The notes beneath the pieces are model-generated. The model did not search any database. It saw only the letters and a list, made by a program, of their open reading frames with translations, and was not told where the DNA came from. 64,000 nucleotides of DNA, taken from contig CM000208.1 of NCBI GenBank assembly GCA_000002445.1, forward strand, positions 3,712,001-3,776,000, given 5' to 3'. The position numbers were made by a program, and so were the translations under genes. Shown here piece by piece: positions 42,233 through 59,508 of the stretch; positions within the stretch are counted from its first letter, which is position 1, and each line of letters opens with the position of its first letter. The DNA is from Trypanosoma brucei. Taxonomy: Eukaryota.

Positions 42233-43234
42233 ATGAACAATGGCGATAATTCCTCCGTAGGAAGCATCAGCGCTCCACCGCGGCAGAGACACAAGTTTGG
42301 CACCCGCACAGCTGAAGGTATCGCAGCACCCGTAGCGGCGGGGGGGATAATAACACGTGGAGGGAATTTTCAGAAGCCAACTCCCTCAAGTGACGACTCC
42401 GCGGCCTCAACAGAAGATTTATCTCTGCTCTTGTGGTGTAGCGTCGGGGTTTTCTTGTTGCTGTACGTGATCAGTGGGCGGTTTCACAACCTCTATATAA
42501 CTCCGGAGGATAATGATAAGGCGGAACAAAATTTCCTCCAATATTTGTCTGAGCGTTGGTCTCGCGAAGGTGATGCAATCATCACAAAGGCGTCAAATGA
42601 TGCCAGTTTTACGCAGCACGGTGATGGACGTATTTATTTCCGCGTAATGAATCAAACCTTTCCTATTAAGGAGTCCACGCCGCCACGCGTTGTGTCAAAA
42701 GTATCTCTTCCGGAAGTAAGCAGTGACAACCGGTGGCGCGGTGATTTGAAAAATGCCACAAGTGAGGCAGCCATGGAGTGGCGTAACCTGACTCAGACGA
42801 TGCAATGCGCTGGAATCGATGGGCCACTCATTTTTCACCTTGTCGCGTTTCTTTCGAGTGGCGTGCGCTTTGTGAGTACATATGTTCCACCAGGGAAGCC
42901 TGAGATACGGTCAGTGGGAGCCCACATTCCATGTCTGAATGCCATTCTGCCATTGATGTGCAAAGGTGACAAATGGGAAATTATCTGCCCTCCTGAGATG
43001 GCATTCGGATCCCACGGATTTCAGGAGGTGCCCCCATCTGCGACAACAATCTGGCAGGTTTTCATGTTGGATGTGACTAAAAGCGGGCCACGCACGCGGG
43101 CACACGTGCAAAAGCTCCTCGCGGCAGCGACACGACGTCATTCCGGCGAGGCGCCGATTACTCGAAGGGAATTGTACGAAAGGGCAATGCGAGCCCGTGG
43201 GAAACTGTTGGGTAACGGTGAAGGCACACTGTAA
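42233..43234 (+). CDS. divergent FKBP-like protein with N-terminal TM segment (degenerate PPIase domain)
   Basis: ATG 42233. TM helix LLLWCSVGVFLLLYVI. C-terminal block LPLMCKGDKWEIICPPEMAFGSHGFQEVPPSATTIWQVFMLDV parallels the upstream FKBP's LQLMRPGDRWKVFIPPEHGYGARGAGPKIPPHSALVFDMELISI. The N-terminal half of the FKBP fold (VHYTG..DG..FDSS) is not recognisable. Confidence 0.6.
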   Translation: MNNGDNSSVGSISAPPRQRHKFGTRTAEGIAAPVAAGGIITRGGNFQKPTPSSDDSAASTEDLSLLLWCSVGVFLLLYVISGRFHNLYITPEDNDKAEQNFLQYLSERWSREGDAIITKASNDASFTQHGDGRIYFRVMNQTFPIKESTPPRVVSKVSLPEVSSDNRWRGDLKNATSEAAMEWRNLTQTMQCAGIDGPLIFHLVAFLSSGVRFVSTYVPPGKPEIRSVGAHIPCLNAILPLMCKGDKWEIICPPEMAFGSHGFQEVPPSATTIWQVFMLDVTKSGPRTRAHVQKLLAAATRRHSGEAPITRRELYERAMRARGKLLGNGEGTL

Positions 43235-43571
43235 GGGATGACATTATGATGTGTGCAAATACGCATCGCGGGGAGGGGCGCCACCTTGTGGTGGCGTGTA
43301 GTGAAGAGAAAAGAAATACAAATGGGAGGAGAGAAACGAAATAGTCCATGCAATATATAAGAAAAGAATATTTACGGGGGTGGATACCTTGTTGTGAAGC
43401 CCCATGTGCATTGATGCCCGCGTGTCTGTTGTACAGCACCGCTATTGGCTCGGCTGTAGTGGTCACCATTGTTTGGCTCTGTTTTTACTTCCCATCAACA
43501 CCCCTGTGGCAACTACAGAAAGGGGAGGGAGTAGGGCGTTTTAGTGAATTCATAGTTCTCTTTTTTAATAC

Positions 43572-43572
<1 letters not shown>

Positions 43573-43614
<42 letters not shown>
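43573..43614 (+). repeat. compound microsatellite (AT)11(GT)10
   Basis: atatatatatatatatatatatgtgtgtgtgtgtgtgtgtgt. Confidence 0.9.
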
Positions 43615-43615
<1 letters not shown>

Positions 43616-43660
43616 AGTTGTTGGTTTTCTTCCCGCTTCCACAATGACACGAGTATATTT

Positions 43661-43680
43661 TGGTGGTGGTGGTGGTGGTG
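43661..43680 (+). repeat. (TGG)6 trinucleotide repeat, G-rich
   Basis: tggtggtggtggtggtggtg. Confidence 0.85.
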
Positions 43681-43970
43681 TTTTTAACCCCCTGTGGGGG
43701 AGCTCTGAAAAGAAGTTAAAGAACCTCTTTCCGACGAGTGAAAGGAAAAAGGAAACGAGGGTCAACAGTACTCCTTTGATCTGGGAGTGAAGGGAAATTC
43801 ACCGACCTTGAGCTGTTTTTTGTTTTACTATTTTGTTTATTTGTTTCCATTCAGTTGTTTTCGTTATCATTATTGCTGTCACATCGTTGTTCATAACCAA
43901 TGTTTCAATGTCTTACTTCCTCATCCGATCCCAAAGTTGGTTTAGGAATGCTCCGAACAAAAAAAAAACA

Positions 43971-43972
<2 letters not shown>

Positions 43973-44012
<40 letters not shown>
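43973..44012 (+). repeat. (TG)20 microsatellite
   Basis: 40 nt of perfect TG dinucleotide repeat. Confidence 0.9.
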
Positions 44013-44017
<5 letters not shown>

Positions 44018-44864: not shown

Positions 44865-46979
44865 ATGGACCCCTCGAGAGCGTTGCAGGAGGGTTCTGAG
44901 GTCTCTGCACTGAACTCAACGGATAATTTTCAGTTTCCCGCGCAGGCCCTTACGGAATGTACGGAATGCAACGGGGATGTGGCGGCTTCAAGCTTTGCAA
45001 GGCTCTCGACGGATGGTGAAGGCGGTAGAGCAAGTGAAAAGGAAGGTGACTCACCGGATCAGATGGATAATGACAACAGTGAAGGGGGCGAATTTGATAT
45101 TTTTGAAGGCGTGGCCCCCGGCGTCTCGAAATGCTCCACTCCACAAACCGAGGGCACGTACGCGGACCGACAACCCCCTCAGCTCTCCAACGCATTGGAG
45201 CGGGAAACTTCGCAGGAAATAAACCGCATTGAAAATAAAGTAGATGCTGTACGCATTGACAGTAGCACAGTTAACACCTCAGACGACTTTATAAGTACCG
45301 TATTCGACGACGTTGACAGGTCCCCATCCCCATTCATTGTGTTGGACCATGTGGAGGACGGAGGCTGTCTTACGTATCAGGGGACCGTGGACTCGGCCAT
45401 GCTTCCGCTAAAAGAGGAGCGGGCGCGAATACTGCAGCGACTCGGGATGTTGCGTGCCACTGAGCAAAGCCGGAGGCAGCAGCTTTGTAGAAAGTATGAG
45501 GGAGAGGTAAACATGCGAATGGTGTCGCTAGCGGTAACCGCAGCTGAACAGATAGATGCGCCGTATGGAAATAGTACGTATCTGACCTCCTCAAGTGTAG
45601 TTTCCACTAACCTTGATACCCAACACAATGAAGCGGAAGAACGAGAACAAGAACAAGACCAAGACCAAGTTCTCCCCCAGGACAGTAGAAGGGGAGAAAC
45701 TACTGTAACTCGGGGAGTAATGGCGGGCTGTTCGACAACAGTATCAAAGGAAGTAACAGGTAGCGTCCGGGAGGGAGCCTCCCTCGTGTGCGATCAAGTT
45801 GATAATGTAGAGAGTGACGAGGATGAACCTCATTTCACCGAAAGACTAACAATGTTGGACTGCATGACACAGGAGTGCTACAAGGGACTAGTCCAAGAGG
45901 GTGAGTTTTTTTCTGGTGAAGCAGAAAGTATGGTTAGCGAAAACAGTGCGGATACCGACTCCAGTGGAGACGGGGTACACAGCCGCGCTGATAACATGAC
46001 GGTGTGTGACAGTGTCGATTGTAATAAGCTACACACGGCGCCGTCAGAAGGTTTTTACATACCAGTACCCATGGACAGAACAGGACAAGTGGAATACGTC
46101 TTCAATGGAGATGACGCGCAGAGACGGTTGAAGTTTCGTAGAGAGGAATATGAGTTGCAGAGGGCTTTGGGTCGAGTAGAGGGGAAGATAGACGCCCTAA
46201 CAGCGTGTCGCCTCAGCAAAGGCATTCACTACTGGCAGAGCGACGATTCAACTGACAGCTGCCCGCGCTGTGGCAAAGTTTTCTCATTCACTGTGCGGCG
46301 GCATCACTGCCGGCGTTGTGGGGTGTTGCTGTGTAACGACTGCTGTTCACAGGTTGGGCGAGATATGTATGTGCAGGTGCGCACTAGTGCAGTCACAAGT
46401 TCGGACGTGGGGCCTTCCCATGGTTCGTCTTCATCCCAGCGCACTACGGGAAATGCCACGGACGACGCATGGCTATTCGGTACATGTGAGCCTACTGGTT
46501 CTGGGGACACACGGGAAAAAAGACCTGGAAGCACTCCCAACTCACTTCAACCTAACCAAACCATTAGTGACACCTGGCAATACCAGGGGAGTAGCAGTAA
46601 CAACAACAGTCTGCCCAATTGTATATGCCTGCCAAACAACGGACGACGGGATTATCGTGGGCGGGGTGGCCTGAAGGTGCGGTATGTCCCGTGGGTCCGC
46701 ATTTGCAATGCCTGTTATCTTGTCTGCCTTCGCGCCCGACTTGGAGGGAATTATAAACCCATTCTTGAGGACAATCGCCGCCGCTTCCATGTCCTTAAAG
46801 AGGAGGAACAGTCCCTTTTGTGTATCAATAGTACATGGGAAATGCGATGGGCACAACTAAATGTACTGAAACATGTCGTCATTGAGCGAACAGTGCATAT
46901 GGCCCACGACCAGGTGCAGCAAGCGGTTGGGGTATTGTCCGATTGGCTTCAAGAGTGGCGGTTATGCCTCAAACCGTAA
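44865..46979 (+). CDS. FYVE zinc-finger protein
   Basis: ATG 44865. FYVE signature WQSDDSTDSCPRCGKVFSFTVRRHHCRRCGVLLCNDCCS at about nt 46233-46352 (WxxD, R(R/K)HHCR, RCG motifs). Acidic N-terminal half; second Cys-rich region CNACYLVC near the C-terminus. Confidence 0.8.
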   Translation: MDPSRALQEGSEVSALNSTDNFQFPAQALTECTECNGDVAASSFARLSTDGEGGRASEKEGDSPDQMDNDNSEGGEFDIFEGVAPGVSKCSTPQTEGTYADRQPPQLSNALERETSQEINRIENKVDAVRIDSSTVNTSDDFISTVFDDVDRSPSPFIVLDHVEDGGCLTYQGTVDSAMLPLKEERARILQRLGMLRATEQSRRQQLCRKYEGEVNMRMVSLAVTAAEQIDAPYGNSTYLTSSSVVSTNLDTQHNEAEEREQEQDQDQVLPQDSRRGETTVTRGVMAGCSTTVSKEVTGSVREGASLVCDQVDNVESDEDEPHFTERLTMLDCMTQECYKGLVQEGEFFSGEAESMVSENSADTDSSGDGVHSRADNMTVCDSVDCNKLHTAPSEGFYIPVPMDRTGQVEYVFNGDDAQRRLKFRREEYELQRALGRVEGKIDALTACRLSKGIHYWQSDDSTDSCPRCGKVFSFTVRRHHCRRCGVLLCNDCCSQVGRDMYVQVRTSAVTSSDVGPSHGSSSSQRTTGNATDDAWLFGTCEPTGSGDTREKRPGSTPNSLQPNQTISDTWQYQGSSSNNNSLPNCICLPNNGRRDYRGRGGLKVRYVPWVRICNACYLVCLRARLGGNYKPILEDNRRRFHVLKEEEQSLLCINSTWEMRWAQLNVLKHVVIERTVHMAHDQVQQAVGVLSDWLQEWRLCLKP

Positions 46980-47743
46980 CAAAAAAAAAAGAAAAAAAGA
47001 AGAAAAAGAGGGTCATTCCTTCGTGTCGTTTCTTTGGTTGTTTTATTCATTGATGGTTTCCCGCCCTCATTTCCTTCCCCCCCTTCCCCTTCTACTTTCT
47101 TTTTTACCCTTTTTTTCTTGTTTTTTTTAGTTTTATCGTTCCGGTCTCCTTTCTTTTTTTCTGTTGTTGTTTGACAGATGTTCCAATTATTATTATTATT
47201 ATTCTCGATTGCTATTATGTTTCTCCCATCCGAGTTTTCCTCCTCTATGTATTATCAAGTGAATAAAGGGAAGATGAAAAAAATAAGTGTGTATGCCTAC
47301 GTTTGTACCTCACTACTCGCACAAATTATATATAAACATGTTTGAGTATATTCGAATAAATAAAATAAATGTACACCTTCACGCTCCTTATGGACATCTG
47401 TCTTTAGCTTTTCATTCCACCGTTTTCACCTCGCTTGCTCAGTTCTATTCTGTTTTGTGTTGTGTTGTGTTGTTGTTGTTTTTTTTTTTCCTTTACGTAT
47501 TTTCATTGTTTTATTTGTTTTGTTTTCATCTTTTGTTCCTTTATCACCACTATTTTTGTCATTTTTCTGGCCCACACCTCACAGCCTAGAAGAAGGGGTA
47601 TGTGAAGTAAAAATGTAGCGGTTCCTTTTTGTGTTTTACTTCTGCTTTTTTTTTTGTTTCATGGGTGCGTTAGAGGAGAACGTAGTGTGCGAAAAGAAAA
47701 AAAAGAAAAAAGTGTGTGCATAAGAAGGAAAAGAGAAAAGGAA

Positions 47744-47744
<1 letters not shown>

Positions 47745-47778
<34 letters not shown>
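47745..47778 (+). repeat. (AT)17 microsatellite
   Basis: 34 nt perfect AT repeat in the gene desert. Confidence 0.9.
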
Positions 47779-47780
<2 letters not shown>

Positions 47781-48401
47781 AGTTTGAGTGGTTTGTTGAT
47801 TGGGGGGGGGTTGGGAAGGAAGGTGGGATGGAAGAAAAGAGAAGTTGAGAAGCTGAAAAGATGGTAAAACACCAAAATGGCGCTTCGGAGGCCCTCACTG
47901 TCGAGTGGTTGTTTTTTTTTTGTCTTTTGTTTGGGGGGGCGGGAGGGTTTTCCTCTCCCCTTTTCTTGTCTCTCTTGCATAAACGTGGAGACACGGATTT
48001 TTTTTTTAAAAAAAGAGAGAAAACGGAAAAGAAATGTGGGTGCACTCAATATAGAAAAGGAAGTGAGAGTACATATGAAGCCAACTTTTGTACGTATGCT
48101 TACGGAGACATAAGGAATGTATATAATTTCATTACCTTGCGTCGTCTTTGTTGCCATACGCTATCTTTACGTGTGTGTTTGTGTGTGTGTGGGGGGGGGG
48201 GAAATGTGAGGAGTTTTTCTTTATTTTCTTTCTATTTCTTTTTATTTTTCTTTCTTTGCTTCATAGGGTTTTTTTTTCTTGCGGTTCGAGCACAATCTGT
48301 GGTTTTACCTCTGTTGTTGCTCCCATCCCTTTGTACCCCCTTCTTGCATTTCTTCTGTTTTTTTTTGTGTGTGTGTTTGAGTGTGAATGTGTTTGTTAGT
48401 G

Positions 48402-48403
<2 letters not shown>

Positions 48404-48439
<36 letters not shown>

Positions 48440-48456
48440 TTATTATTATTATTATT
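48404..48456 (+). repeat. compound microsatellite (TA)16(ATT)7
   Basis: tatatatatatatatatatatatatatatata attattattattattattatt. Confidence 0.9.
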
Positions 48457-49258
48457 TTCTTCTCCCCTCCCCCCTTTTCCACTTTTGTCTATCCCTAATC
48501 TTTATTATTACTATTATTGTTGTTGTTGTTACTGTTATTGTTAATGTTACAGGTGTGGCTTTTCCCCACTGCTCTTTTGTTTTGTCTTCAGTTGGGGCAG
48601 ATGGTCGATTTTCAGTCATTAGTTTTGCTTCTATCGTTTCTTCTTCAATGATCAAGAAGATCTTTTTTTCTTAACAAAAAGAAAAGGAAAAAAAGAAAAG
48701 AAAACAAGAAACTACAGATCTTGTCCACTCGAATTGTGTGACAAGGGCCAATCTGTATTTTTTTTTTTTCATGTGAGTGACTCACTCGTTTGACCGTTTT
48801 CTTGTGTTGTTCAATTTTGTCGTTTTGTTCAGGGGTTATCAAATTATCTCCATCGTGCATTCACTTGAATCACACGGATAGCTTCTGAAACAATATAAAG
48901 CCGAAACGAAATTTTCTCTTCCCTCCATTTTGCTTTTTCCTCGCAGCCAATCACGCAATTTATTTACTTTTTTGCACTGCGCTTTCTTTCTTTCTTTTTT
49001 TCTTACTTTTTGCTCCCTCCCTTTTTTCTTCTCCTCTTGTAGTGGTCGCGCTTCATTGTTGTTGTTTTTTTTTTTGTGTGTGTGTGTGTTTTTTCTCATT
49101 TTCGCTTTCAGTAAGTTCATTTTCCTCCCCCCCCTTCCCTCCTTCAGTAACACACCACTACACACTCACCCATTCATGATTACCATTCTTAATTATTGTG
49201 GTTGCCATCATTGCTGTTGTTGGTGAGTTTTATTCCTTTTCATGTGCGTGGAGGAGCC

Positions 49259-49280
49259 GTGTGTGTGTGTGTGTGTGTGT
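49259..49280 (+). repeat. (GT)11 microsatellite
   Basis: gtgtgtgtgtgtgtgtgtgtgt. Confidence 0.9.
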
Positions 49281-49887
49281 AGCAGTTTCAAATGAGTCAC
49301 AAAATAAAATACTTTTTTTTAAAAAAAAGTAAAGGTACCAAATGAAAGTGCCGTTTATGAGGGGGAGGGGAAACAAGAAGGAAGAAGAGGTGTGTGTGTG
49401 TGGGGGGGGAGAAAGTTTGTTATTATTTAATTCTACCATTTCTTTTTGGTGCTTTTCCTTATGTTCCCTGTTTTGTTTTATCACTGACCCATCTTGCGTT
49501 TCATCAACAACACACTTTACGTGTACGAACAAACCCCCACCATACACCCCAAAAAACAAAAGGGGAACCAATCCAGATGTATACATGTTGAAGGAAGAAC
49601 ACCATACACTCATACACATATATAAAATATATAAATGAATATAAGTATATTATTTTTTTTTAATTTTTCTTTGAAATATGTTTTGTCTACCCAAGTACTC
49701 GTTACAAAAATGTAGACTCCCTTTCACTGTTCTCCTCAACATTTTTTTTCGACAGTTGTTATCAATATTCGGCTTCATTTGTATCTTCTCTTTCTGTGCA
49801 CTTGTACATACGCATCTCCGTTTACATCTTACTTTCCTTCTCCTTTCCTTCGCTTCAGGAAAAAGGCTGTGGAACAAGTGAAGTAAA

Positions 49888-49905
49888 GAGGAGGAGGAGG
49901 AGGAG
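49888..49905 (+). repeat. (GAG)6 trinucleotide repeat
   Basis: gaggaggaggaggaggag, upstream of LST8. Confidence 0.85.
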
Positions 49906-49924
49906 AAAACCTTCAACGGAATAC

Positions 49925-49978
49925 GAACTTTATTCTGTTTTGTTTTTCATTTATTCCGTTTCCTTTTTTTTTTCTTTA
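49925..49978 (+). promoter_or_regulatory. polypyrimidine tract about 60 nt upstream of the LST8 ATG: candidate SL acceptor region
   Basis: ctttattctgttttgtttttcatttattccgtttccttttttttttcttt, followed by AG dinucleotides (aaaAGtaacAG) before ATG 50037. Confidence 0.45.
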
Positions 49979-50036
49979 AACGAAAAGTAACAGGAGGGAG
50001 GGAAGGAGGGGAAACGCATCGTGAGTACCAAACCAA

Positions 50037-52151
50037 ATGAGCTCTACATTTATTATATCCGCTTCTTATGACAAAGAAATACGCTTTTGGGACGGATCAA
50101 CGGGCCGAACAGTCCGCAGTTTTCCCTTTCAGGGATCACAGGTCAATGCGATGTTGACGATTCCAAACACCACACACCTCGCCGTTGGAGGATTTGGTGC
50201 CGTTCGCGTGTATGATATTGGAGTTGAAGCTGGATCAGCTGGGGGCAATAGTGGAACACAACCACCCCCGGTTTTCTCCGTTTATGAAAATCAATACGCA
50301 ATGAACGTAACGAGCCTGGGGACGTTCCCACTCTACCCGCAGCGTGACGAGGAAATGCACTTAAACTCTGCGGAAGCTTCCATGAGTAGCTTGTTTTGCA
50401 CTTCTGCAGACCTTGCTGCAACCGCCACATTAGACCCCACACCGACCACGGGCTCTGCTGGAGTGTTGACTGTTCTTTTCGCCACTTCGGAGGACGGGCA
50501 CATTCGGTTTTTTAACGCAAACTCACCCACAACACTAAACCTTCTGCTCGATATTAGCGCGGGTGCGGCCATCACGTGCAGTGCCGTCTCCCCGGATCGT
50601 CACACCTTGTTCACCGGTTCCCAGATCGGTCGCGTCTCGGTGTGGCACATACCAAGTATCATTGCGGCAGCTGCGCAACACGGAGACAGCACTAGCAGAG
50701 GTGGTCTCTTTGCTAGTAAGCCAATGCAAGAGATTGCCTTCAATGGGGATTACACAGCCATTAGAAGTATAGCCGTGGAACCGCTGGCGCGTTGGGCTGT
50801 GGCAGCAACAAGTGCTGGGAAGCTTCATTTTATGTGTTTTGGAAGGTGCGCGCAGAACCTTACCGGCACACATGCCTCCGAGGCACACGCAGCTGGAAGG
50901 TTGGCGAATGAAGAGGTGCCTGGAGAAGAGGAAGAAACAAGCCCGCAAGTGCAGCGACCGGTAGCGGAGGGGACGGTCGCCGACAGCGCTCCCGCAATCG
51001 CCACGAATGACTCTAGTTCACGTTCCATTAATTCCGCAAACACCCTGCGCCCTAGTTGCGGGCCCTTGTCTGTGCTTAAAACACATGGAAACGAAGGAAG
51101 TGGGGGTGACGTGGCTGCTAACGCTAGTGAGTCACCCCTTGCTAACGATGGTGTGACATTTTCTGATGCAGTCGACGCCTCAGACACGGGAAATTCAACC
51201 CCGGGAATGGACGTGACCAAGAAGTTCAGCGCACCGGGCCTCTTGACCTCATCATCGGTCAATTCCTCATCCATTCAGCAACAATTTTTTTTGAAGGTTT
51301 TTCACTCGTTTCAGGCGCACCACAAATATATCCTTAAGGTGGCCATCTCACCCAATATAGATATCTTGGTGACATGTTGTGGGGACTACACCGTTGGGAG
51401 ATTCGTAATCCCTCCAATACTTCAGTGCTGTGACGTGACGACCAAGCACGCTTCTGGGTGTGAAAGTGACTCCCACAGCGCAGGAGTATCCTCGCTGACA
51501 AGTGCGGTGAGATTGTCTGGCCTCACCGAGAAAAACACGGCGGCAGGTTCTGATCCCACAAACCAGGTGGCTGCAGCGGGGGATAACAATGGGGCCGGAG
51601 CTGGTGGTGCAACCGCAGCAAGTTCGTCCTCACTTCTTCAACCTAAGGCAGATGAGGGTGCCGTCCTCACTCCTACAGCGGCACCGTCAACGTCGTTTAC
51701 ACATGATGGATCAACTGGAAGCGTAGAAGATGGTGTAAAGCCGGTGGCTGCGGTAGCTAATGACCCTACCGTGAATGAATCTCAACCCTTGGCAACGATG
51801 GAAACGGTGAAAAAAATGACAAGTCCTGCTGACGCCCCAACAGAGAGGCATGATGCGTTCCACTTGGCCACGTCAAACTTTCCACAGCTGGTTGCAGAGG
51901 GAAGTACACAAGTTAACATTGGCGATGGGGTTGAGTTCAAGGAACTAAAACCCCTGACAGGACACACGCGGTGGGTCTGGGACTGTGCCTTCAGTGATTG
52001 CGGGAGGTTTCTCTTCACAGCTAGCAGCGACCAAACGTTACGTATGTGGACCTCTCTCCTCAGTGACAGACCACATTCCACCAGCTTCGTTGGTCATATG
52101 AAACCAGTGGTGTGCTGCATGCTCTATGTGGAAAGGAAGAAAAACCAATAG
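50037..52151 (+). CDS. LST8: LST8-like WD40 protein (TOR complex subunit homolog) with large inter-blade insertions
   Basis: ATG 50037. N-terminus ISASYDKEIRFWDGSTGRTVRSF..GSQVNAMLTIPNTTHLAVGGFGAVRVYDI parallels LST8 (SAGYDHTIRFWEALTG..DSQVNRLEI..LAAAGHQNVRLYDI). HHKYILKVAISPNIDILVTCCGDYT matches the WD6 blade. C-terminus LTGHTRWVWDCAFSDCGRFLFTASSDQTLRMW matches LST8 (HQRWVWDCAFS..YLVTASSD..RLW). Total 704 aa against about 320 aa typical. Confidence 0.75.
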   Translation: MSSTFIISASYDKEIRFWDGSTGRTVRSFPFQGSQVNAMLTIPNTTHLAVGGFGAVRVYDIGVEAGSAGGNSGTQPPPVFSVYENQYAMNVTSLGTFPLYPQRDEEMHLNSAEASMSSLFCTSADLAATATLDPTPTTGSAGVLTVLFATSEDGHIRFFNANSPTTLNLLLDISAGAAITCSAVSPDRHTLFTGSQIGRVSVWHIPSIIAAAAQHGDSTSRGGLFASKPMQEIAFNGDYTAIRSIAVEPLARWAVAATSAGKLHFMCFGRCAQNLTGTHASEAHAAGRLANEEVPGEEEETSPQVQRPVAEGTVADSAPAIATNDSSSRSINSANTLRPSCGPLSVLKTHGNEGSGGDVAANASESPLANDGVTFSDAVDASDTGNSTPGMDVTKKFSAPGLLTSSSVNSSSIQQQFFLKVFHSFQAHHKYILKVAISPNIDILVTCCGDYTVGRFVIPPILQCCDVTTKHASGCESDSHSAGVSSLTSAVRLSGLTEKNTAAGSDPTNQVAAAGDNNGAGAGGATAASSSSLLQPKADEGAVLTPTAAPSTSFTHDGSTGSVEDGVKPVAAVANDPTVNESQPLATMETVKKMTSPADAPTERHDAFHLATSNFPQLVAEGSTQVNIGDGVEFKELKPLTGHTRWVWDCAFSDCGRFLFTASSDQTLRMWTSLLSDRPHSTSFVGHMKPVVCCMLYVERKKNQ

Positions 52152-53054: not shown

Positions 53055-54821
53055 ATGTTTGTTACCTCGCAACTAACACATATGCGGAGGCTCTCGGTAT
53101 CGTTCCTACCGTTTCACCTGATCGTCACTACTCAGCGTCGCCAATTTGGTGGAAACTCGAAGGATGGGCACAAGGGGGAGGACAAACCGATAGAACGCGT
53201 AGGAGGAGTGCCACCCACAGGTCCCCATCCGTTTAACATCACTAGTGGAGCAGAAGGACAAATCTCCAACCAGCAGCGCAAGGCCCACGATGCCATAACT
53301 CAACTTTTCCGCGACGACGCGCAGCGAAAGGCACTATATCAGAAGCCTGGTAGGACCATTGGGGCCCAAACTACAACTGCCGCCATCTCGACGCCGCCGA
53401 ATGAAGATGAATTTGAGGGTCTGCAGCCCATTTCAGGTGATGCGGAGCCGTCGTCCATCACTGCAGTGGAGGCTGTGGAGCAAGAGTTGTTAGACGATGC
53501 TTTTTTGTATTTTCCACCCGCACAGCAGTCCGCGAGTGGCAGTGTCGCTACCACTGCTACTAACGAACTGTACGTACCGGGACAGCAAATCATTCCTCCC
53601 GGATTAACGCGCTACCGAGTGGATGTGCAATACCAGGGAAATGATTTTGATGGATGGTGGAAGAGCACGACACGCCAGCTTTTCAGACGTGAGGTCGGTT
53701 TAGATGGCTCAATCACGCGGGTGCCGGTGGCGGAGCCAGGAACCATCGGAAACGCTGCTGGGGTCTCTCGAGGGGAGACGATGGGTAGCAGATATCATGC
53801 GCGAACAGTGTTGGAGGAAGCACTTGCCGTGGCGCTCGATGTGAATACGGTCCGTGTTGTGGCCGGTGTCATACCTGAGGTTGGGGTGTCTGTGCGACGT
53901 CTCTGCTGTCACGTCGATGTACCCAGTCACATTGAGCTGCAGCCACGAACAGTGATTCAGCGGGCCACTATGTGGATGGAAAAACGCCAACAACCCCTAG
54001 CCATTTTGAGTTATCGTCGATGCAAGAACCAAGACTTTCACGCACGCCACAGTGGCTTGAGGCGTGTCTATGTTTACCGCATTCTGAATCGTGTCGCACC
54101 GCCCTTATTCGACGCTGGGCTCCAGTGGCATGTAGATCGCCACCTCGATGTGGACCGGATGAAGCGATTTGCTAAAACCCTTGAGGGCACAAAGGACTTC
54201 GGTTACTTTGCTGACCCCAAGATGGCAAATGCGCTGCGGCGGGCAGCCATGAGCCCTGGTGGTTTTTCTACAGGGGCAGTAACGGAAGAAAACTTCCAAC
54301 CAAAAGCTACAGGGGAATCGCACCGAGTGACGCGCGGCAAAGCGCCGAAGGTGACGATGGAAAAAGGCCCCAGTAACCTTGATCGAGCCGCAGCGCTTCC
54401 AACTTTTAACGAGTACGGCCAGCGAGTTGTGCAGCCAGGTGCTCATGGAAAAGAATATTACCGTGTTGCAACCAATCTACCGACGGTACGGACAGTCGAC
54501 AGGCTTGATGTGGTGCGGCAGGATGATGAGGTGCTTATTTGGTTTGTAGGCCGCTCTTTCCTCCGTCATCAAATTCGAAATATGGTAAGTGTGCTGAAGG
54601 CAGCTGGACACGGTCTGTGGAATGATCTGGAACTCCAGCAGGCCCTGCAAAGCGGCTTTGAGCCGTCACGGCATCGGTTCAAGCGGGAGCGCTTCCCAAC
54701 AGCACCGGCGTATGGCTTGACATTGTGGGATGTGGAGTACCCGGATCAGCACCGAGACGATTACGTGCAATTTGTCGATTCTGGACCATATGAACAAGTG
54801 AACATCGCCCGTGACATATAA
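53055..54821 (+). CDS. TruA/Pus1-family pseudouridine synthase homolog with N-terminal extension (possible mitochondrial targeting)
   Basis: ATG 53055. Family-typical C-terminal motif VGRSFLRHQIRNMVSVL (compare FLYHMVR.MVG.L), plus RTVLEEALAVAL and YRILNRV...LEGTKDF blocks. N-terminus MFVTSQLTHMRRLSVSFLPF is basic/amphipathic. Confidence 0.7.
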   Translation: MFVTSQLTHMRRLSVSFLPFHLIVTTQRRQFGGNSKDGHKGEDKPIERVGGVPPTGPHPFNITSGAEGQISNQQRKAHDAITQLFRDDAQRKALYQKPGRTIGAQTTTAAISTPPNEDEFEGLQPISGDAEPSSITAVEAVEQELLDDAFLYFPPAQQSASGSVATTATNELYVPGQQIIPPGLTRYRVDVQYQGNDFDGWWKSTTRQLFRREVGLDGSITRVPVAEPGTIGNAAGVSRGETMGSRYHARTVLEEALAVALDVNTVRVVAGVIPEVGVSVRRLCCHVDVPSHIELQPRTVIQRATMWMEKRQQPLAILSYRRCKNQDFHARHSGLRRVYVYRILNRVAPPLFDAGLQWHVDRHLDVDRMKRFAKTLEGTKDFGYFADPKMANALRRAAMSPGGFSTGAVTEENFQPKATGESHRVTRGKAPKVTMEKGPSNLDRAAALPTFNEYGQRVVQPGAHGKEYYRVATNLPTVRTVDRLDVVRQDDEVLIWFVGRSFLRHQIRNMVSVLKAAGHGLWNDLELQQALQSGFEPSRHRFKRERFPTAPAYGLTLWDVEYPDQHRDDYVQFVDSGPYEQVNIARDI

Positions 54822-55768
54822 TGAGCGTAGCCGCGGATGGCAAAAACCTATGGTAAGTAACAAATTGCATGGGAGGAAGGGCCAAAAGTACATCGCGTGC
54901 CTTTCGCTGTGACATTGCTCGTGGAATGAGAAGTGAGAGGACTCTCTCAGCTAACGAGGCTCATCAATACCGCGCGGTATGTGGGACTATGAATGTTTCA
55001 TTCTACGTCGCTTTTTATCGATCCACTAATATGGACGCTGTTTCAATTCCTGCCGGTGGTCCGCATACTTTCTCTTAAGTTAACGCTGTGAGTGAGGCGA
55101 TCGCTTTTCTCCCATACACACATAAGGTTTCTGCCTTATTCGGCTTTGACTGAGCTGGATGGAGTCTGATCTCAAATACGATTAATTGCTCTTTTTTTTT
55201 TATTCTCTGACTTTTTTGGGGGTTGATTAGTGCATAAAAGCGCGGAGGAAAGGAGAGAATTAGTTGACAAGGCAGGGTACTAGTAACTAGGGAAAAAGTC
55301 AAGAAATAACAAAGAAGGGGAAAGAATTATTTTAATCTGTATTTCACATTTAGGGGACGTGGCTGCACCTGCGTACGTTCTCGTGACTCGATCACCTGCA
55401 GGGATTCACTCCCTTTTATTTTATCCTGTCCTTTGAAATTTGCTGGTACCCGTTGCCCTTGGCACGGTATAGAAACGATAAGGGTATTGGTTTAAGGTAG
55501 GCCACGTGAGGAATAACAAAGACGTTCAAAAGAACATTTTGAGGGATCAGAGACTATTGCGTTTCCCTCACGAACATATAAAATAAGTGTACCGAGCAAC
55601 GGAGGTGCCATCAAGTTTACGCCCCCCCCCCCTTCCGCTTGCACTTTTAGGTGTCCGGGACGGTAAAAACAGAAAGGGAGGACGAGAGCGGTGTTAGCAC
55701 ACTCCTCCACTCTTTTTTTTTCTCTGTTGCGCTGTCGCTGGTTTCCACCGCCCATCACTTCTCCTGGG

Positions 55769-58108
55769 ATGATTCGTTACACTCAATACCTTATCACGAG
55801 GCATACACCGGCCTTGTTGAAGAAAGCTGTGGCTCCAAATGTTAACGTTTCTGCCACGTTGCAAAAATCATTTCGCACGTACCGAATCGCCGCCGTGTTG
55901 CGTAAACCTCTTCCTCCTAAGGTCAACCTCATCATGATTGACAACACCGTTAAAGGGAAGAGTGTGGATCTGCTATCTATCGTAAAATTAGTGACTGGGT
56001 ATGGAAAGAAGGTTATGGACAAACATAACGACATGGGACGTTTACACCCCCTCATTTTGATTGTGAAAACAACTCTGGATAGGGACAATGCCAGCGTTGA
56101 CCAATTTGTGCTGAATATGGTCCTGACGAAGCGTAAGTACCTTAAGGACATGATTACGATTGTTCTCGACGCCAAAACCACAGCAGCTGCTGCACATGCA
56201 CTTCGTACTGACAGGGGAATCACGTTAGTACTGAAAAAAAACGACCCGGCAACAACTGAGAAGGATCAGGTTAATGAGGCTGATGAGAAAGCGGAGAGAG
56301 GCACCACTATAGAGCAGGCGGAAAAGAAGAAACGGGGTAAAACGAAGAAAAGGAAAGGTGTGCTTCTTCAAGCGCCAGCTGCGGTGCCGAGTGTGACAGA
56401 AAGCAGTTCGCTTATTAGCCGACGAAAGAAGTTAACAAAAGGCAAGCTCAAAAAGCGCGCTCATTCGCCAGGGAAAGTATCCAAGGTTGAAGCTGAATCG
56501 AGGAAGAAAAACGAAACCATGATAGTACAAACAAAAGCAGACCGGCGGGCTCTGATATGGGGGAAGGGAAGCGCGACCGATTCGCCAGAGACCGCTGCAG
56601 GTGTAGGCAACGCAGAAGGGAAAAAGAATCCTCCTGCTCCGAAGATGGCTTCTGCACTTGCACACATTGATGCGCAAGAGGCTTTGGGCAAACCATTCTG
56701 TCCTACGGTTGGTGGTGTTTTTCAACCGTCGCAGCAAGTTGAACGGGAGCTTTTCTCCGGTTATGTGAATGTTGTGTGTCTGGCTGATATGCTGAACCTC
56801 CCTGTCTACAAGGGTGGCGAAATGTTCACACTTTACTACCGTTTGACGGGCGCAGGAGCCTACCGCACTCCTCTGATAACAATCAGTAAAATATTGGAGG
56901 AAGCCTGTCAAAAGCATGGTGGAGGACCGTCTCCACACTCAAGCGCGGTTCCTACGAGTCAGGTGCCCCTGTTGCTACTTCTTGGTGCACCGTTCCTTTT
57001 TGGAGAAGATGCTCGTCTCCTCTGTGAGGAATACCAGAAATCTTTACGTAGTCAGATTCCCGCCATATCAGAAATTACGATAATCGTGGCACCAGCTTGC
57101 TACACAGAGAAGAATATTCTCTTTGCCCTTAATACCGCGCAAGAGGGGCGCAAAAGCAGTTGCGAGGCTTCAAGGAACGAACCACACCAAAAGCAGCATA
57201 GACATGACGAGCCCCCTAGTGCCTTGGCCAACCTGTCGTCTGGTGAGGGGACGAATTCGTCCTTATCTGAGAATGTTTTACGAGACATCGTATCAACAGC
57301 CGTGGAAGAGGTCACACAACGCCATGAAAAGTCTACACGGGATCTCTCAGGAGCGGTGAAGCAGCTTATAGAGTGCTTGCCACGAGACCGTCTTGTAAAT
57401 TTAATAGATAATCTTGAGGAGGAGAGACTTGCGCTTCTTGAAACTACCAAGGGGCTAGGTGAAATTCGGCAGCGGGTGCGCGGCACGCAGGAAACTTTGG
57501 ACACGATGCACAAAGAAGTTGTTGGCATGGCGAGCAAGGCAAATGCTCCAAACGTCTCAGGTAACATCGGTTCAGCAGCTGACGTCATCGAACTCTGCAA
57601 GGCTGTTGAAACACTGAAGGGCCGAATAGCAGACTGTGCTAATCCCGTGCCAATAAAGCAACAGCTAAGCTTTGAGATACGTGAAACATTAGGAGACTTG
57701 AAGAGGAATCTTCAGGACACATTCAACCAATCGCTCCAAGTGGGTTTCAAGAATATACAGGACCAGCAGCAGAGTCAGTTAACAGTCGCTCTTAGGGAAT
57801 ATGCCTCGGAGAGCGCAAGGGAGCGCGCCCTCACAGAGCAGACTCTTCGTGACCTCCCAAAAAACCTTCAGAGTGCAATGGAGAAGGCGCTCTCCACGCT
57901 GACGGATCGTAATGATAGAAAAACTGCGGAAGTGTTCGTTGAACAGCAGAAGTTAGTAGACACCAAAGTCTCCGCCATGTGCGATGCACTAGGCAGAACA
58001 GTTGAAAAGGGTCACGACCGCTTGCGAGATACTCTCACAGACTTGCTGCAGAGAAATCCCAACGCCAGCAGTGGGACCTCCCCTACAACCGACACACAGC
58101 ATAACTGA
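55769..58108 (+). CDS. hypothetical protein (basic Lys-rich middle, C-terminal coiled coil)
   Basis: ORF track starts at GTG 55691; first in-frame ATG is 55769 (MIRYTQYLITRHTP). 780 aa. KKKRGKTKKRKG basic cluster; C-terminal Q/L/E heptads. No family recognised. Confidence 0.55.
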   Translation: MIRYTQYLITRHTPALLKKAVAPNVNVSATLQKSFRTYRIAAVLRKPLPPKVNLIMIDNTVKGKSVDLLSIVKLVTGYGKKVMDKHNDMGRLHPLILIVKTTLDRDNASVDQFVLNMVLTKRKYLKDMITIVLDAKTTAAAAHALRTDRGITLVLKKNDPATTEKDQVNEADEKAERGTTIEQAEKKKRGKTKKRKGVLLQAPAAVPSVTESSSLISRRKKLTKGKLKKRAHSPGKVSKVEAESRKKNETMIVQTKADRRALIWGKGSATDSPETAAGVGNAEGKKNPPAPKMASALAHIDAQEALGKPFCPTVGGVFQPSQQVERELFSGYVNVVCLADMLNLPVYKGGEMFTLYYRLTGAGAYRTPLITISKILEEACQKHGGGPSPHSSAVPTSQVPLLLLLGAPFLFGEDARLLCEEYQKSLRSQIPAISEITIIVAPACYTEKNILFALNTAQEGRKSSCEASRNEPHQKQHRHDEPPSALANLSSGEGTNSSLSENVLRDIVSTAVEEVTQRHEKSTRDLSGAVKQLIECLPRDRLVNLIDNLEEERLALLETTKGLGEIRQRVRGTQETLDTMHKEVVGMASKANAPNVSGNIGSAADVIELCKAVETLKGRIADCANPVPIKQQLSFEIRETLGDLKRNLQDTFNQSLQVGFKNIQDQQQSQLTVALREYASESARERALTEQTLRDLPKNLQSAMEKALSTLTDRNDRKTAEVFVEQQKLVDTKVSAMCDALGRTVEKGHDRLRDTLTDLLQRNPNASSGTSPTTDTQHN

Positions 58109-59508
58109 ATAGACATACAGCATAGAGTTTAAACGGAAACAAATAATAACATATAATAAAAGTGCGAGTACATAGCGAGGGCATGCTCGAAGGAATACAT
58201 GGACTCAGCTGGACACGTTTTCATATATGGAAGCTGTTCATGGCAGTTAGGTGCATGAATCTTACTTCCCTGCATCTGCTATGTATCCATGTGCGTGTGG
58301 GTACGCGTCTTGAAGGCTTGAGTGTTTATGGCGCTCCATAGGTCGGGCTGAACTTTTGTGGACCGAGCAACTCCCTTGCACAACATGTGTTCATCAAGAG
58401 AAAGCCGTCATCCTGTGTGTGTCCCGTGCACTCCCATGGAGTACGCAATTGCTTCGGAGAAATGAATGAACGTCCTCGAGATGGGGCCAATACGACCTGT
58501 TTTTCGTTTACCACGGGTTTCACGTTGGTCTCGTCTGTGCAGCTCGCTCGTTGGTTTGGGGGATTGAGTGGTTCGCGCATCCCGCTCTTGTTCTATTTTG
58601 AGTTTTCCTCCTTTTTTTTTCTGTTCTGCCCTGCTTTCTTCACCTAAGGGAGGAAAAGGGGAGAAGGGACGACGATAGACTTTACTCATAATTGGAGAAA
58701 CTTCTCCGTTTATTTCCTATCTGATTTTTCCAACGTGACATATTTCTTATTTTTGTAAAGTTCATTCCTTTCCCTGTGGGGTGGGGAGGGCAAAGGATAG
58801 AGAGGTTCAAATGAATGGAATCATATGGACTGGTTGGAAGTTAGAGCTACTAAAGTTTCTGGACGGGTTTGTAGTTATTTGCGCTCTGTTTCGTCGGCCG
58901 TCTTCTTTTACAAGTCTCTGATGTTCCGTCCGCGCCAGCATAGCTCGTAATTAGGCGCTGATTGCTCGTGGTGACCTAATTTCCCCTTGTCTTGTCCCTC
59001 ACATATACACAAATGTCAAGAAATGTTTCCTCTTATGCGCCGTGAGGTTCACTTCAGTACGTCTCCCTTGTGACTTACTTGTTCTTATTTTCGTATTAGT
59101 ATAGGGTGGTTTCTCTTTCCTTATCCCTCTGACCCTTTCCCGCTATTCACTACGTGGCGGGGGAATCAAAGCGTATTGTTAGCGGAGGGAACGTTTCTGT
59201 GGGGTTATAATCCCGGAGCCCAAGCTGGCCCTGGAAGTGCAACGCGTGGAGGTGGATAAAGATGGGGAGGAAACGTTAGGGGAAAAATTGGTCAAAGTAG
59301 TGCACACGTTGCCTGCTAAAATGTCTGGCAGCGTGTTGAGGACTCATTCTCCCTTCTATATCTACTCTATCCTCTCATTTCACCCCTTTCCAACGTCCCT
59401 TCGCTAGTATTTCTGTCACCATCCTCACGTAAGGAGAGGAAAGAGCTTTTCCACCATTAGCCCCCACTAGTGAAGACGGCCACTCAAACTCTGAGTTTAT
59501 CGGTGACA

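What the first reader, a model, noticed from the sequence alone, without database searches (positions are those of the whole stretch)
50037..52151. LST8 (TOR-complex WD40 subunit) homolog carrying two large low-complexity insertions
The N-terminal blades and the terminal blade (LTGHTRWVWDCAFS...TASSDQTLRMW) align convincingly with LST8. The protein is 704 aa against about 300-330 aa for canonical LST8. The extra sequence sits in two blocks, at about nt 50850-51300 and 51420-51950. Both are Ser/Thr/Ala/Gly-rich and predicted disordered, and both fall between recognisable WD blades (before and after the HHKYILKVAISPNIDILVTCCGDYT blade). Insertions in loops of a TORC scaffold subunit could be lineage-specific regulatory or phosphorylation platforms.
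Basis: partly seen in the sequence, partly recalled or inferred. Interest (0 to 1): 0.55.

Follow-up and report, generated by a model that had tools for sequence, protein, structure and literature searches.

The report
Trypanosome LST8 with disordered loop inserts
This gene is the already-known Trypanosoma brucei LST8 (Tb927.10.15640), the WD40 partner of TOR kinases. It is twice the usual length because long floppy loops, with no tested function, sprout from the side of the propeller that appears to face away from TOR.

Summary
ORF 50037-52151 (+) encodes a 704-aa protein identical to XP_828034.1/Q387V0 = Tb927.10.15640, which the literature already treats as TbLST8.

LST8 affinity is specific:
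- A kinetoplastid profile hits PDB LST8 chains at E 1e-40 to 1e-34; other natural WD proteins score 1e-14 or worse.
- The three best Foldseek matches to the AlphaFold model are mLST8 chains.
- The four human mLST8 residues implicated in mTOR binding (Q44, N46, W272, W274) are identical here (Q35, N37, W646, W648).

The extra length is not WD repeats. The model has 7 confident blades, with pLDDT below 50 at aa 66-71, 104-141, 277-406 and 466-630. There are five loop expansions, not two, all in A-B or C-D loops. By WD40 topology these lie on the face opposite the TOR-contact residues.

The inserts are acidic, S/T/A/G-rich and almost free of aromatics, but not repetitive. All sampled kinetoplastids have them; sister diplonemids (322-337 aa) do not. 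The blade-6 loop is also expanded independently in Eurotiales fungi, a chytrid, an oomycete and colponemids.

A regulatory or phosphorylation role remains untested. Identity is already known; the insert anatomy is real but modest in interest.

The parts
50037..52151 (+). Complete TbLST8 coding sequence (704 aa plus stop); Tb927.10.15640 / XP_828034.1 / Q387V0
   Evidence: ORF. Exact-sequence match to XP_828034.1, EAN78922.1 and Q387V0. Q387V0 is listed as Tb927.10.15640 (73.5 kDa, 6 peptides) in PMC6907760 supplement file 5.
50037..50216 (+). aa 1-60: strands B-D of blade 1 and strands A-C of blade 2. Contains Q35 and N37 (nt 50139-50147), which equal human mLST8 Q44 and N46.
   Evidence: pLDDT 87-93 and strands 3-10, 14-19, 25-30, 36-41, 47-53, 55-60. 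Aligns to LST8 residues 2-69 at E 5e-15. Residue mapping. Role of the human residues from PMC10903481.
50217..50270 (+). Small expansion 1, aa 61-78: C-D loop of blade 2 (18 aa here, 7-8 in canonical and diplonemid LST8, up to 33 in L. major)
   Evidence: pLDDT below 50 at aa 66-71. Loop-length table.
50334..50465 (+). Expansion 2, aa 100-143: A-B loop of blade 3 (44 aa against 3 in canonical LST8). Contains a Trypanosoma-conserved island E-x-S-x-S-S-L-F (aa 113-120, nt 50373-50396).
   Evidence: pLDDT below 50 at aa 104-141. Loop lengths. Island.
50649..50726 (+). Expansion 3, aa 205-230: C-D loop of blade 4, with a short helix at 205-214. In L. major it is 69 aa and is predicted as a helical hairpin.
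   Evidence: DSSP and pLDDT. L. major model has helices 230-255 and 270-293. Loop lengths.
50841..51290 (+). Insert A, aa 269-418: C-D loop of blade 5, about 150 aa. The disordered core is aa 277-406, flanked by short helices at 269-275 and 406-416.
   Evidence: pLDDT 28-33 across the core. No Pfam domain. 74% small/polar/acidic residues, 2% aromatic, net charge -10. 128-207 aa in all 20 orthologs at only 11-37% identity. 2-23 aa in canonical and diplonemid LST8.
51291..51407 (+). aa 419-457: strand D of blade 5 plus strands A-C of blade 6 (the FQAHHKYILKVAISPN...CCGDYTVGRF blade)
   Evidence: pLDDT 92-94. Aligns to yeast-type LST8 residues 200-230. H428, T446 and D450 are invariant from kinetoplastids to plants and animals.
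51408..51938 (+). Insert B, aa 458-634: C-D loop of blade 6, about 177 aa. The disordered core is aa 466-630. Contains the island S-L-L-Q-P (aa 532-536, nt 51630-51644).
   Evidence: pLDDT 27-35. No Pfam domain. 73% small/polar/acidic residues, net charge -11. 96-201 aa in all orthologs at 9-36% identity. L534 and P536 are invariant in Trypanosoma. The same loop is about 95-103 aa in Eurotiales and a chytrid and 24 aa in human.
51939..52133 (+). aa 635-699: strand D of blade 6, blade 7, and the C-terminal strand that closes blade 1. Contains the R-W-V-W-D motif with W646 and W648 (nt 51972-51980), which equal human W272 and W274.
   Evidence: pLDDT 89-95. Aligns to LST8 residues 244-300 at E 2.5e-15. 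R645-D649 are invariant across alignments A2 and A4. Residue mapping.

Best explanation
The ORF is TbLST8 (Tb927.10.15640), the single LST8 ortholog of Trypanosoma brucei.

Its roughly 300-residue core folds into the canonical seven-bladed WD40 propeller. That core keeps the residues that in human mLST8 are predicted to contact the mTOR kinase domain: Q35, N37, W646 and W648. I therefore infer that it docks on the kinase C-lobe of the trypanosome TOR paralogs and serves as the shared scaffold subunit of their complexes, as published co-purifications indicate.

The other ~400 residues are five loop expansions. Two are very large: about 150 aa in the blade-5 C-D loop and about 177 aa in the blade-6 C-D loop. 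All five sit in A-B or C-D loops. By WD40 topology this is the face opposite the D-A loops that carry the TOR-contact residues, so the expansions can grow without disturbing TOR binding.

The expansions are intrinsically disordered, acidic and rich in Ser/Thr/Ala/Gly. They evolve fast in sequence but are retained in position. They arose within Kinetoplastea after the split from diplonemids and lengthened towards trypanosomatids.

My best reading is that they are mainly tolerated, solvent-exposed disordered appendages at structurally permissive loops. A few short conserved islands are the only candidates for specific function.

Shown here: identity, fold, insert positions, predicted disorder, phylogenetic distribution. 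Inferred: that the inserts face away from TOR, and that most of their length has no sequence-specific role.
For: Identity:
- The sequence is an exact match to XP_828034.1/Q387V0, which is Tb927.10.15640.
- PMC5745459 names XP_828034 as the experimentally determined TbLST8.
- PMC5617986 lists TbLST8 in the TbTOR4 complex.
- Leishmania LST8 (LmxM.19.1010) is enriched about 67-fold in the RPTOR1 pull-down and about 185-fold in the TOR1 pull-down. The Leishmania orthologs of the window protein map to chromosome 19: LPMP_190870, named LST8 by UniRef.

Specificity:
- PDB phmmer and the profile search put LST8 about 20 orders of magnitude ahead of other natural WD proteins.
- The core-only search returns named LST8s.
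- The Foldseek top three are mLST8 chains.
- Q44/N46/W272/W274 map to identical Q35/N37/W646/W648, and these are invariant in 20 orthologs.

Anatomy:
- The model has 28 strands, i.e. 7 blades, at pLDDT above 90, and the inserts are below 50. The L. major ortholog shows the same pattern.
- The inserts contain no Pfam domains and no DNA repeats.

Evolution:
- Blades are 44-92% identical across orthologs, against 9-37% for the two large inserts, while insert positions are kept.
- Diplonemid LST8s are 322-337 aa without inserts.
- Unnamed relatives of 505-570 aa have inserts of 94-109 and 82-91 aa and share microsynteny with the window.

Permissive-loop argument:
- The blade-6 C-D loop is independently expanded to about 95-103 aa in Aspergillus, Penicillium and Gaertneriomyces, 62 aa in Plasmopara and 73 aa in Colponema.
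- A second gene in the window, the DAGK-like gene, is also inflated relative to its homolog on L001.
Against: - The statement that the inserts face away from TOR rests on strand assignment plus the general WD40 convention. I had no coordinates to measure it, and no complex model.
- Insert length has been retained, and has grown, across the whole kinetoplastid radiation.
- Short conserved islands exist: SLLQP and ExSxSSLF in Trypanosoma, and PRExIYRSALVxNELS in Leishmaniinae, T. grayi, T. theileri and early-branching relatives. Conserved helices also flank insert A.
- These features hint at some selection on the inserts, so 'mostly tolerated' may understate their function.
- Phosphorylation data could not be reached.
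- The primary paper for the TOR4-LST8 interaction (Barquilla 2012) was not readable here; I rely on two secondary citations.
Confidence: 0.85

Rival explanations
1. The inserts are functional, kinetoplastid-specific disordered modules. They could be docking sites or phospho-regulated tails that recruit lineage-specific partners (for example Armtor or MVP in TORC4), or that let one LST8 serve four TOR paralogs.
For: - The inserts are retained at the same loops in every sampled kinetoplastid, and they lengthen stepwise.
- They contain 23-24% Ser+Thr, five S/T-P sites and a net charge of -10 and -11.
- They carry short conserved islands and conserved helices flanking insert A.
- The L. major blade-4 loop forms a predicted helical hairpin.
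- Trypanosomes have extra TOR paralogs and a TOR4 complex that contains LST8.
Against: - Sequence identity in the two large inserts is only 9-37%, even within Trypanosoma/Leishmania.
- The best-conserved insert motif (PRExIYRSALVxNELS) has decayed in T. brucei itself.
- One of the five S/T-P sites (T388) is polymorphic, T/A, among T. brucei strains.
- No phosphosite was found in the supplements that could be searched.
- Comparable expansion of the blade-6 loop occurs in fungi, an oomycete and colponemids, which lack these partners.
Confidence: 0.25
2. The protein is a generic WD40 protein with no specific LST8 relationship; the resemblance is ordinary WD-repeat similarity.
For: Pfam has no LST8-specific model, so the protein hits only generic WD40 and propeller families, all below their curated cut-offs except PF00400. 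Designed and repetitive WD proteins also score highly in the PDB search.
Against: - There is a gap of about 20 orders of magnitude between LST8 chains and any other natural WD protein.
- The match is colinear over blades 1-2, 6 and 7.
- The Foldseek top three are mLST8.
- TOR-contact residues and the RWVWD motif are conserved.
- Published co-purification with TOR kinases.
Confidence: 0.02
3. The long protein is a divergent paralog, and kinetoplastids also keep a canonical ~320-aa LST8 that does the conserved job.
For: The core is unusually divergent: 25% identity to human over 316 aligned positions. By contrast, the diplonemid LST8 is 43-48% identical to the named fungal and plant LST8s in its hit list.
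Against: - With a diplonemid LST8 as query, none of the 120 best hits (E 9e-83 or better, 249-459 aa) is a named kinetoplastid protein, although kinetoplastid genomes are in the database.
- The core-only search found only long forms in kinetoplastids, plus one 299-aa T. melophagium entry that covers 65% of the core at 54% identity and may be a truncated model.
- The long form is the one that co-purifies with TOR.
Confidence: 0.03
4. The extra length is an artefact (mis-assembly, unrecognised intron or frameshift) or consists of degenerate WD repeats forming extra blades.
For: None beyond the unusual length.
Against: - It is a single uninterrupted ORF.
- Blades 1-5, 6 and 7 lie on either side of the inserts in one frame, so a complete propeller requires read-through.
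- The same architecture appears in more than 20 independently assembled species.
- No strands or WD/Pfam signal occur in the inserts.
- Proteomics lists the protein under the 73.5-kDa model.
Confidence: 0.02

Closest known systems
Human mLST8 (GbetaL) and yeast Lst8, e.g. PDB 4JSN chain D, 6EMK chain B, 6ZWM chain C
   Same: Seven-bladed WD40 propeller. These are the best sequence, profile and fold matches. The mTOR-contact residues Q44/N46/W272/W274 are identical. The RWVWD, SSD and GH-K motifs are shared. Both act as a shared subunit of TOR complexes, according to the literature.
   Different: The core is only 25% identical. The protein is 704 aa against 303-326 aa. Five loops are expanded, by about 10, 41, 13, 140 and 166 aa relative to human.
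Leishmania LST8 (LmxM.19.1010; L. major XP_001682684, 814 aa)
   Same: Ortholog with the same seven blades and the same five expansion sites. Shown to co-purify with RPTOR1 and TOR1 (PMC10933368).
   Different: Its inserts are longer: insert A about 200 aa, and the blade-4 loop 69 aa with a predicted helical hairpin. It retains the PRExIYRSALVxNELS motif that T. brucei has lost.
Diplonemid LST8 (Diplonema japonicum 322 aa, Flectonema neradi 337 aa)
   Same: Closest non-kinetoplastid relatives of the T. brucei core (E about 1e-41, 32-33% identity over 97-99% of the core).
   Different: They have no large inserts: 9-23 aa at site A and 11-12 aa at site B. This dates the expansions to within Kinetoplastea.
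Eurotiales and chytrid LST8 with a long blade-6 loop (e.g. Aspergillus niger 392 aa, Gaertneriomyces 411 aa), and colponemid-type LST8 (Colponema 421 aa partial; P0044 509 aa)
   Same: These are independent expansions of the same blade-6 C-D loop: about 95-103 aa in the fungi and 71-73 aa in the colponemid type. In the colponemid type, the blade-5 C-D and blade-3 A-B loops are also expanded.
   Different: They are smaller. The fungi are expanded at one loop only. None reaches twice the canonical length.

Membership tests
LST8 / Wat1 / Pop3 (TOR-complex WD40 subunit) | A single seven-bladed WD40 beta-propeller forms the whole folded part of the protein | tested here: met
   The AlphaFold2 model has 28 strands in 7 four-stranded blades at pLDDT above 90, with the C-terminal strand closing blade 1. 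The L. major ortholog gives the same result.
LST8 / Wat1 / Pop3 (TOR-complex WD40 subunit) | Closer in sequence to LST8 than to any other WD40 family | tested here: met
   The ortholog profile against PDB scores LST8 chains at E 3e-40 to 4e-34 and other natural WD proteins at 1e-14 or worse. In the core-only database search, named non-kinetoplastid hits are all LST8.
LST8 / Wat1 / Pop3 (TOR-complex WD40 subunit) | Closest in fold to solved LST8 structures | tested here: met
   Foldseek against PDB ranks 8era_C, 4jsp_C and 6zwm_C (all mLST8) first to third, with E 1.6e-17 to 8e-15 and TM 0.79-0.83 normalised to the target.
LST8 / Wat1 / Pop3 (TOR-complex WD40 subunit) | Conservation of the residues that contact the TOR kinase domain (human Q44, N46, W272, W274) | tested here: met
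   The residues are named in PMC10903481. They map to identical Q35, N37, W646 and W648 (using a human sequence verified against 4jsn_D). All four are invariant in 20 kinetoplastid orthologs.
LST8 / Wat1 / Pop3 (TOR-complex WD40 subunit) | Physical association with TOR kinase in TOR complexes | not testable with these tools
   Literature only. XP_828034 is described as 'experimentally determined' to be LST8 (PMC5745459). TbLST8 is listed in the TbTOR4 complex (PMC5617986). Leishmania LST8 is enriched in the RPTOR1 and TOR1 pull-downs (PMC10933368 supplement). The primary T. brucei paper was not held.
LST8 / Wat1 / Pop3 (TOR-complex WD40 subunit) | It is the lineage's ortholog, not a side paralog | tested here: met
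   No named kinetoplastid protein appears among the 120 best relatives of a diplonemid LST8, and only long forms are found in kinetoplastids. Limit: unnamed metagenomic entries cannot be assigned to taxa, and no whole-genome scan of T. brucei was possible.
LST8 / Wat1 / Pop3 (TOR-complex WD40 subunit) | Typical length of about 300-330 aa with short inter-strand loops (typical of the family, not defining) | tested here: not met
   The protein is 704 aa with five expanded loops. Other bona fide LST8s also depart from this: Aspergillus is about 390 aa, and the maximum among the 120 diplonemid-query hits is 459 aa. Length therefore does not bar membership.

The most novel reading that the evidence does not exclude
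The two giant disordered loops, together with the three smaller ones, form a kinetoplastid-specific regulatory layer on the shared TOR scaffold. They would act as phospho-regulated or motif-bearing tethers that recruit lineage-specific partners, or that sort one LST8 among the TOR1, TOR2 and TOR4 complexes, and so feed into the choice between proliferation and quiescence (slender-to-stumpy differentiation).
Probability: 0.15. Interest if true: 0.55.

Novelty: already known. Interest (0 to 1): 0.25.

Why it matters
TOR signalling controls growth and the switch between proliferation and quiescence in trypanosomes and Leishmania. LST8 is the one subunit shared by their TOR complexes.

Three points are useful for anyone modelling or purifying kinetoplastid TOR complexes, and for designing loop-deletion constructs:
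- The parasite protein keeps the TOR-contact residues.
- More than half of its mass is parasite-specific disordered loop.
- That loop material lies on the face inferred to point away from TOR.

If the loops proved functional, they would be a parasite-specific handle on an otherwise conserved pathway. If not, this is a clear example of neutral loop inflation at permissive sites of a WD40 propeller, one that recurs in several eukaryotic lineages. The gene's identity itself is not new.

Tried and rejected
1. Tandem duplicate. The ORF at 44865-46979 is also exactly 704 aa, but it is unrelated (BLASTP E 0.28) and carries a FYVE finger. The equal length is a coincidence.
2. DNA-level repeats as the source of the inserts. 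Tandem Repeats Finder found nothing in the gene, and direct repeats were found only in intergenic microsatellites.
3. Hidden domains in the inserts. None were found.
4. Length distribution of LST8 from the 1.84-billion-protein representative library, using a canonical-weighted profile. This was useless: the top 150 are all giant multi-propeller WD proteins (1,011-3,631 aa) whose summed repeat scores swamp single-propeller LST8s. I used the diplonemid-query hit list instead.
5. Phosphosites.
   - Tb927.10.15640 appears only in the protein table of PMC6907760, not in its held phosphosite text, and some files were cut when stored.
   - It is absent from the PMC11408851 supplements.
   - Two other papers have no held supplements.
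   - Urbaniak 2013 is not held.
6. Primary sources Barquilla 2012 (PMC3437835) and Yang 2013 (PMC4512754) are not held. The TOR4-LST8 interaction therefore rests on secondary citations, and the face of mLST8 that binds mTOR rests on secondary citations plus WD40 topology.
7. Within-T. brucei polymorphism as a selection test. Only 8 distinct substitutions were found (3 in blades, 5 in variable regions), which is too few to be informative.
8. I first took the 509-aa proteins P0042 and P0044 for early kinetoplastid intermediates. Their loop pattern matches Colponema instead, so I reclassified them as an independent case.
9. A spliced-leader sequence written from memory had no match in L001 or L002. 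Their taxonomic origin is inferred from microsynteny only.
10. The 2026 TOR/AMPK survey preprint does not mention long kinetoplastid LST8. No paper in the searchable library describes these inserts.
Full report
**Observation.** The window has a single uninterrupted ORF at 50037..52151 on the + strand, encoding 704 aa. It sits in a run of same-strand ORFs. An AT-rich microsatellite spacer precedes it, with polypyrimidine tracts just upstream of the ATG. This is the layout expected of a trypanosomatid polycistronic unit. The start codon is shared by all 20 orthologs aligned. Another 704-aa ORF at 44865..46979 is unrelated and carries a FYVE finger.

**Identity.** The translated sequence is identical to XP_828034.1 / EAN78922.1 / Q387V0 of T. 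brucei brucei TREU927, and to a T. equiperdum entry.
- An independent preprint uses the same gene ID for T. brucei LST8.
[quoted passage not shown] 2012 (PMC5745459).
- A review places TbLST8 in the TbTOR4 complex with MVP and Armtor (PMC5617986).
- In Leishmania, 'LST8' (LmxM.19.1010) is enriched about 67-fold in the RPTOR1 pull-down and about 185-fold in the TOR1 pull-down (PMC10933368).
- The Leishmania orthologs of the window protein lie on chromosome 19. The L. panamensis one is LPMP_190870, which UniRef names LST8.

So the gene and its LST8 identity are already in the literature.

**Is the LST8 affinity specific?** I tested this independently of the literature.
1. phmmer against PDB puts LST8 chains at the top of the natural proteins (E 2.7e-22 to 1.2e-19). 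The matches are colinear at both ends: query 5-62 to LST8 about 8-71, and query 633-696 to LST8 239-300. WDR5 and others stop at about 1e-11.
2. A profile of 20 kinetoplastid orthologs (alignment A1) widens the gap. LST8 scores E 2.9e-40 to 4.1e-34. Other natural WD proteins score 1e-14 or worse. The HHKYILKV blade now aligns to LST8 residues 200-230.
3. A 365-aa insert-deleted core finds diplonemid proteins first outside kinetoplastids. After those, every named hit is 'Target of rapamycin complex subunit LST8'.
4. The AlphaFold2 model's best three Foldseek hits in PDB are mLST8 chains from mTORC1, mTORdeltaN-mLST8 and mTORC2 entries.
5. PMC10903481 reports that mutating mLST8 Q44, N46, W272 and W274, residues predicted to contact mTOR, disrupts mTORC2. 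I verified a human sequence against chain 4jsn_D. With it, these residues align to identical Q35, N37, W646 and W648. All four are invariant in the kinetoplastid alignment.
6. With a diplonemid LST8 as query, the 120 best hits are 249-459 aa. Many are named LST8, Pop3 or Wat1. None is a named kinetoplastid protein. I therefore see no canonical-length paralog.

The core is nevertheless unusually divergent: 25% identity to human over 316 aligned positions. This explains the 'limited similarity' remark in the literature.

**Anatomy of the extra length.** The model has 28 strands forming 7 four-stranded blades at pLDDT above 90. The N-terminus supplies strands B-D of blade 1 and the C-terminal strand (691-699) supplies its strand A. 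pLDDT falls below 50 at aa 66-71, 104-141, 277-406 and 466-630, which together with shorter stretches makes 342 residues. Reading the strand order gives five expansions:

| Loop | Residues |
|---|---|
| Blade-2 C-D | 61-78 |
| Blade-3 A-B | 100-143 |
| Blade-4 C-D | 205-230 |
| Blade-5 C-D (insert A) | 269-418 |
| Blade-6 C-D (insert B) | 458-634 |

- They contain no strands, no Pfam domain and no DNA repeats.
- They are 73-74% S/T/A/G/P/N/Q/D/E and 2% aromatic, with net charge -10 and -11. Their entropy is 3.8 bits, so they are compositionally biased rather than strictly low-complexity.
- The L. major ortholog gives the same picture. Its longer blade-4 loop is predicted as a helical hairpin.

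**Geometry (inferred).** In WD40 propellers the D-A and B-C loops form the 'top' face and the A-B and C-D loops form the 'bottom' face. This is established structural convention, taken from my own knowledge. The conserved TOR-contact residues sit at the very start of strand A of blades 2 and 7, which is on the top side. All five expansions are in A-B or C-D loops, on the opposite side. So the expansions should project away from the TOR kinase domain. That would explain how more than 400 residues can be added without losing TOR binding. I could not check this with coordinates or a complex model.

**Evolution.**
- Across 20 kinetoplastid orthologs (612-838 aa), the blades are 44-92% identical to T. 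brucei and the two large inserts only 9-37%. Every species nevertheless has insert A (128-207 aa) and insert B (96-201 aa) at the same sites.
- Diplonemids, the sister group, have 322-337-aa proteins with 9-23 aa at site A and 11-12 aa at site B.
- Unnamed relatives of 505-570 aa have 94-109 aa at site A and 82-91 aa at site B, but almost no blade-3 expansion.
- One of these lies on a contig that shares a downstream DAGK-like gene with the window. It is probably an early-branching kinetoplastid.
- The expansions therefore arose within Kinetoplastea and grew towards trypanosomatids.
- Sequence constraint inside the loops is limited to short islands. ExSxSSLF (113-120) and SLLQP (532-536) are conserved in Trypanosoma. 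A PRExIYRSALVxNELS motif in insert A is conserved in Leishmaniinae, T. grayi, T. theileri and early-branching relatives, but has decayed in T. brucei.

**Not unique to kinetoplastids.** The blade-6 C-D loop is a recurrent expansion site:

| Lineage | Blade-6 C-D loop length |
|---|---|
| Aspergillus, Penicillium, chytrid Gaertneriomyces | about 95-103 aa |
| Colponema | 73 aa |
| Plasmopara | 62 aa |
| Human | 24 aa |

The 509-aa proteins P0042 and P0044 share the multi-loop pattern of Colponema, so they are an independent case and not kinetoplastid intermediates. A second gene in the window, the DAGK-like gene at 59470-61563, is also inflated relative to its L001 homolog. Both observations favour permissive-loop inflation as the default explanation. 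Kinetoplastids are simply the extreme case: five loops and more than twice the canonical length.

**Function of the inserts.**
- Points in favour: the loops are S/T-rich (23-24%), carry five S/T-P sites, are retained throughout the lineage, and have a few conserved islands.
- Points against: one S/T-P site (T388) is polymorphic among T. brucei strains. The best-conserved motif is lost in T. brucei. No phosphosite data could be retrieved.

I put about 0.25 on a specific function for a substantial part of the inserts, and 0.15 on the stronger version in which they sort LST8 among TOR complexes or control differentiation.

**Verdict.** This analysis adds five things:
- a precise map of five loop expansions;
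- their predicted disorder;
- their placement opposite the conserved TOR-contact residues;
- their origin after the diplonemid-kinetoplastid split;
- the recurrence of blade-6 loop expansion in other eukaryotes.

Interest is modest (0.25).

Noticed in passing
window 44865-46979 (+): A second ORF of exactly 704 aa lies two genes upstream. It is unrelated to LST8 (BLASTP E 0.28) and carries a FYVE zinc finger at aa 456-498. The identical length is a coincidence.
   Followed up: yes
window 59470-61563 (+) and L001:3088-4470: A DAGK_cat/YegS_C (sphingosine/diacylglycerol-kinase-like) gene lies downstream of LST8, both in the window and on the Logan contig that carries a 516-aa LST8 relative, so microsynteny is conserved. 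The T. brucei copy is 697 aa against 460 aa, with extra segments inside conserved blocks. This is a second example of protein inflation in the same window.
   Followed up: partly
alignment A5, insert A (L. major aa ~432-455; T. brucei aa ~337-356, nt ~51045-51104): The motif PRE(T/S)IYRSALV(V)NELS inside insert A is conserved in Leishmaniinae, T. grayi, T. theileri and, as STYASALEAN, in early-branching relatives. It has decayed in the T. cruzi clade, T. vivax, T. congolense and T. brucei. AlphaFold gives it no confident structure in L. major.
   Followed up: partly
L. major ortholog P0021, aa 230-293 (equivalent to window aa 205-230, nt 50649-50726): In Leishmania the blade-4 C-D loop is 69 aa and is predicted as a two-helix hairpin with pLDDT up to 80-89. 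In T. brucei only one short helix (205-214) remains.
   Followed up: no
P0042 and P0044 (509 aa; L002:475-2004) and P0046 (Colponema vietnamica): These colponemid-type LST8 proteins have independently expanded several loops: blade-3 A-B and C-D, blade-5 C-D, blade-6 C-D and blade-7 C-D. Eurotiales and a chytrid have about 100 aa in the blade-6 C-D loop. LST8 loop inflation is therefore recurrent across eukaryotes.
   Followed up: partly
window 42233-43234 (+): A 333-aa protein with an FKBP-type peptidyl-prolyl isomerase domain (PF00254, E 4e-9) lies three genes upstream of LST8. This is the domain family of FKBP12, which presents rapamycin to TOR. Nothing suggests a functional link; I mention it only because of the neighbourhood.
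   Followed up: no
window 43550-44015 and 47738-48465: The intergenic spacers carry long (TA)n, (GT)n and (ATT)n microsatellites, and GC drops to 0.36 in 48001-50000. All 22 ORFs of 250 aa or more in the window are on the + strand, which is consistent with one polycistronic transcription unit.
   Followed up: partly
window 50535-50948 (-) and 50825-51274 (-): Two antisense ORFs of 137 and 149 aa overlap the LST8 coding region. They are probably chance ORFs in a GC-balanced coding stretch, and I did not test them further.
   Followed up: no
P0038 (Trypanosoma melophagium XP_067189569, 299 aa): This annotated 299-aa protein matches only 65% of the T. brucei core, at 54% identity. It may be a truncated gene model of the long LST8 rather than a short form.
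   Followed up: no
window 30582-33089 (+) and 53055-54821 (+): Other annotated neighbours are a Vps53 N-terminal domain protein (E 1e-60) and a tRNA pseudouridine synthase-like protein. The large ORFs at 33723-37244, 38068-39768 and 55691-58108 have no Pfam match.
   Followed up: no
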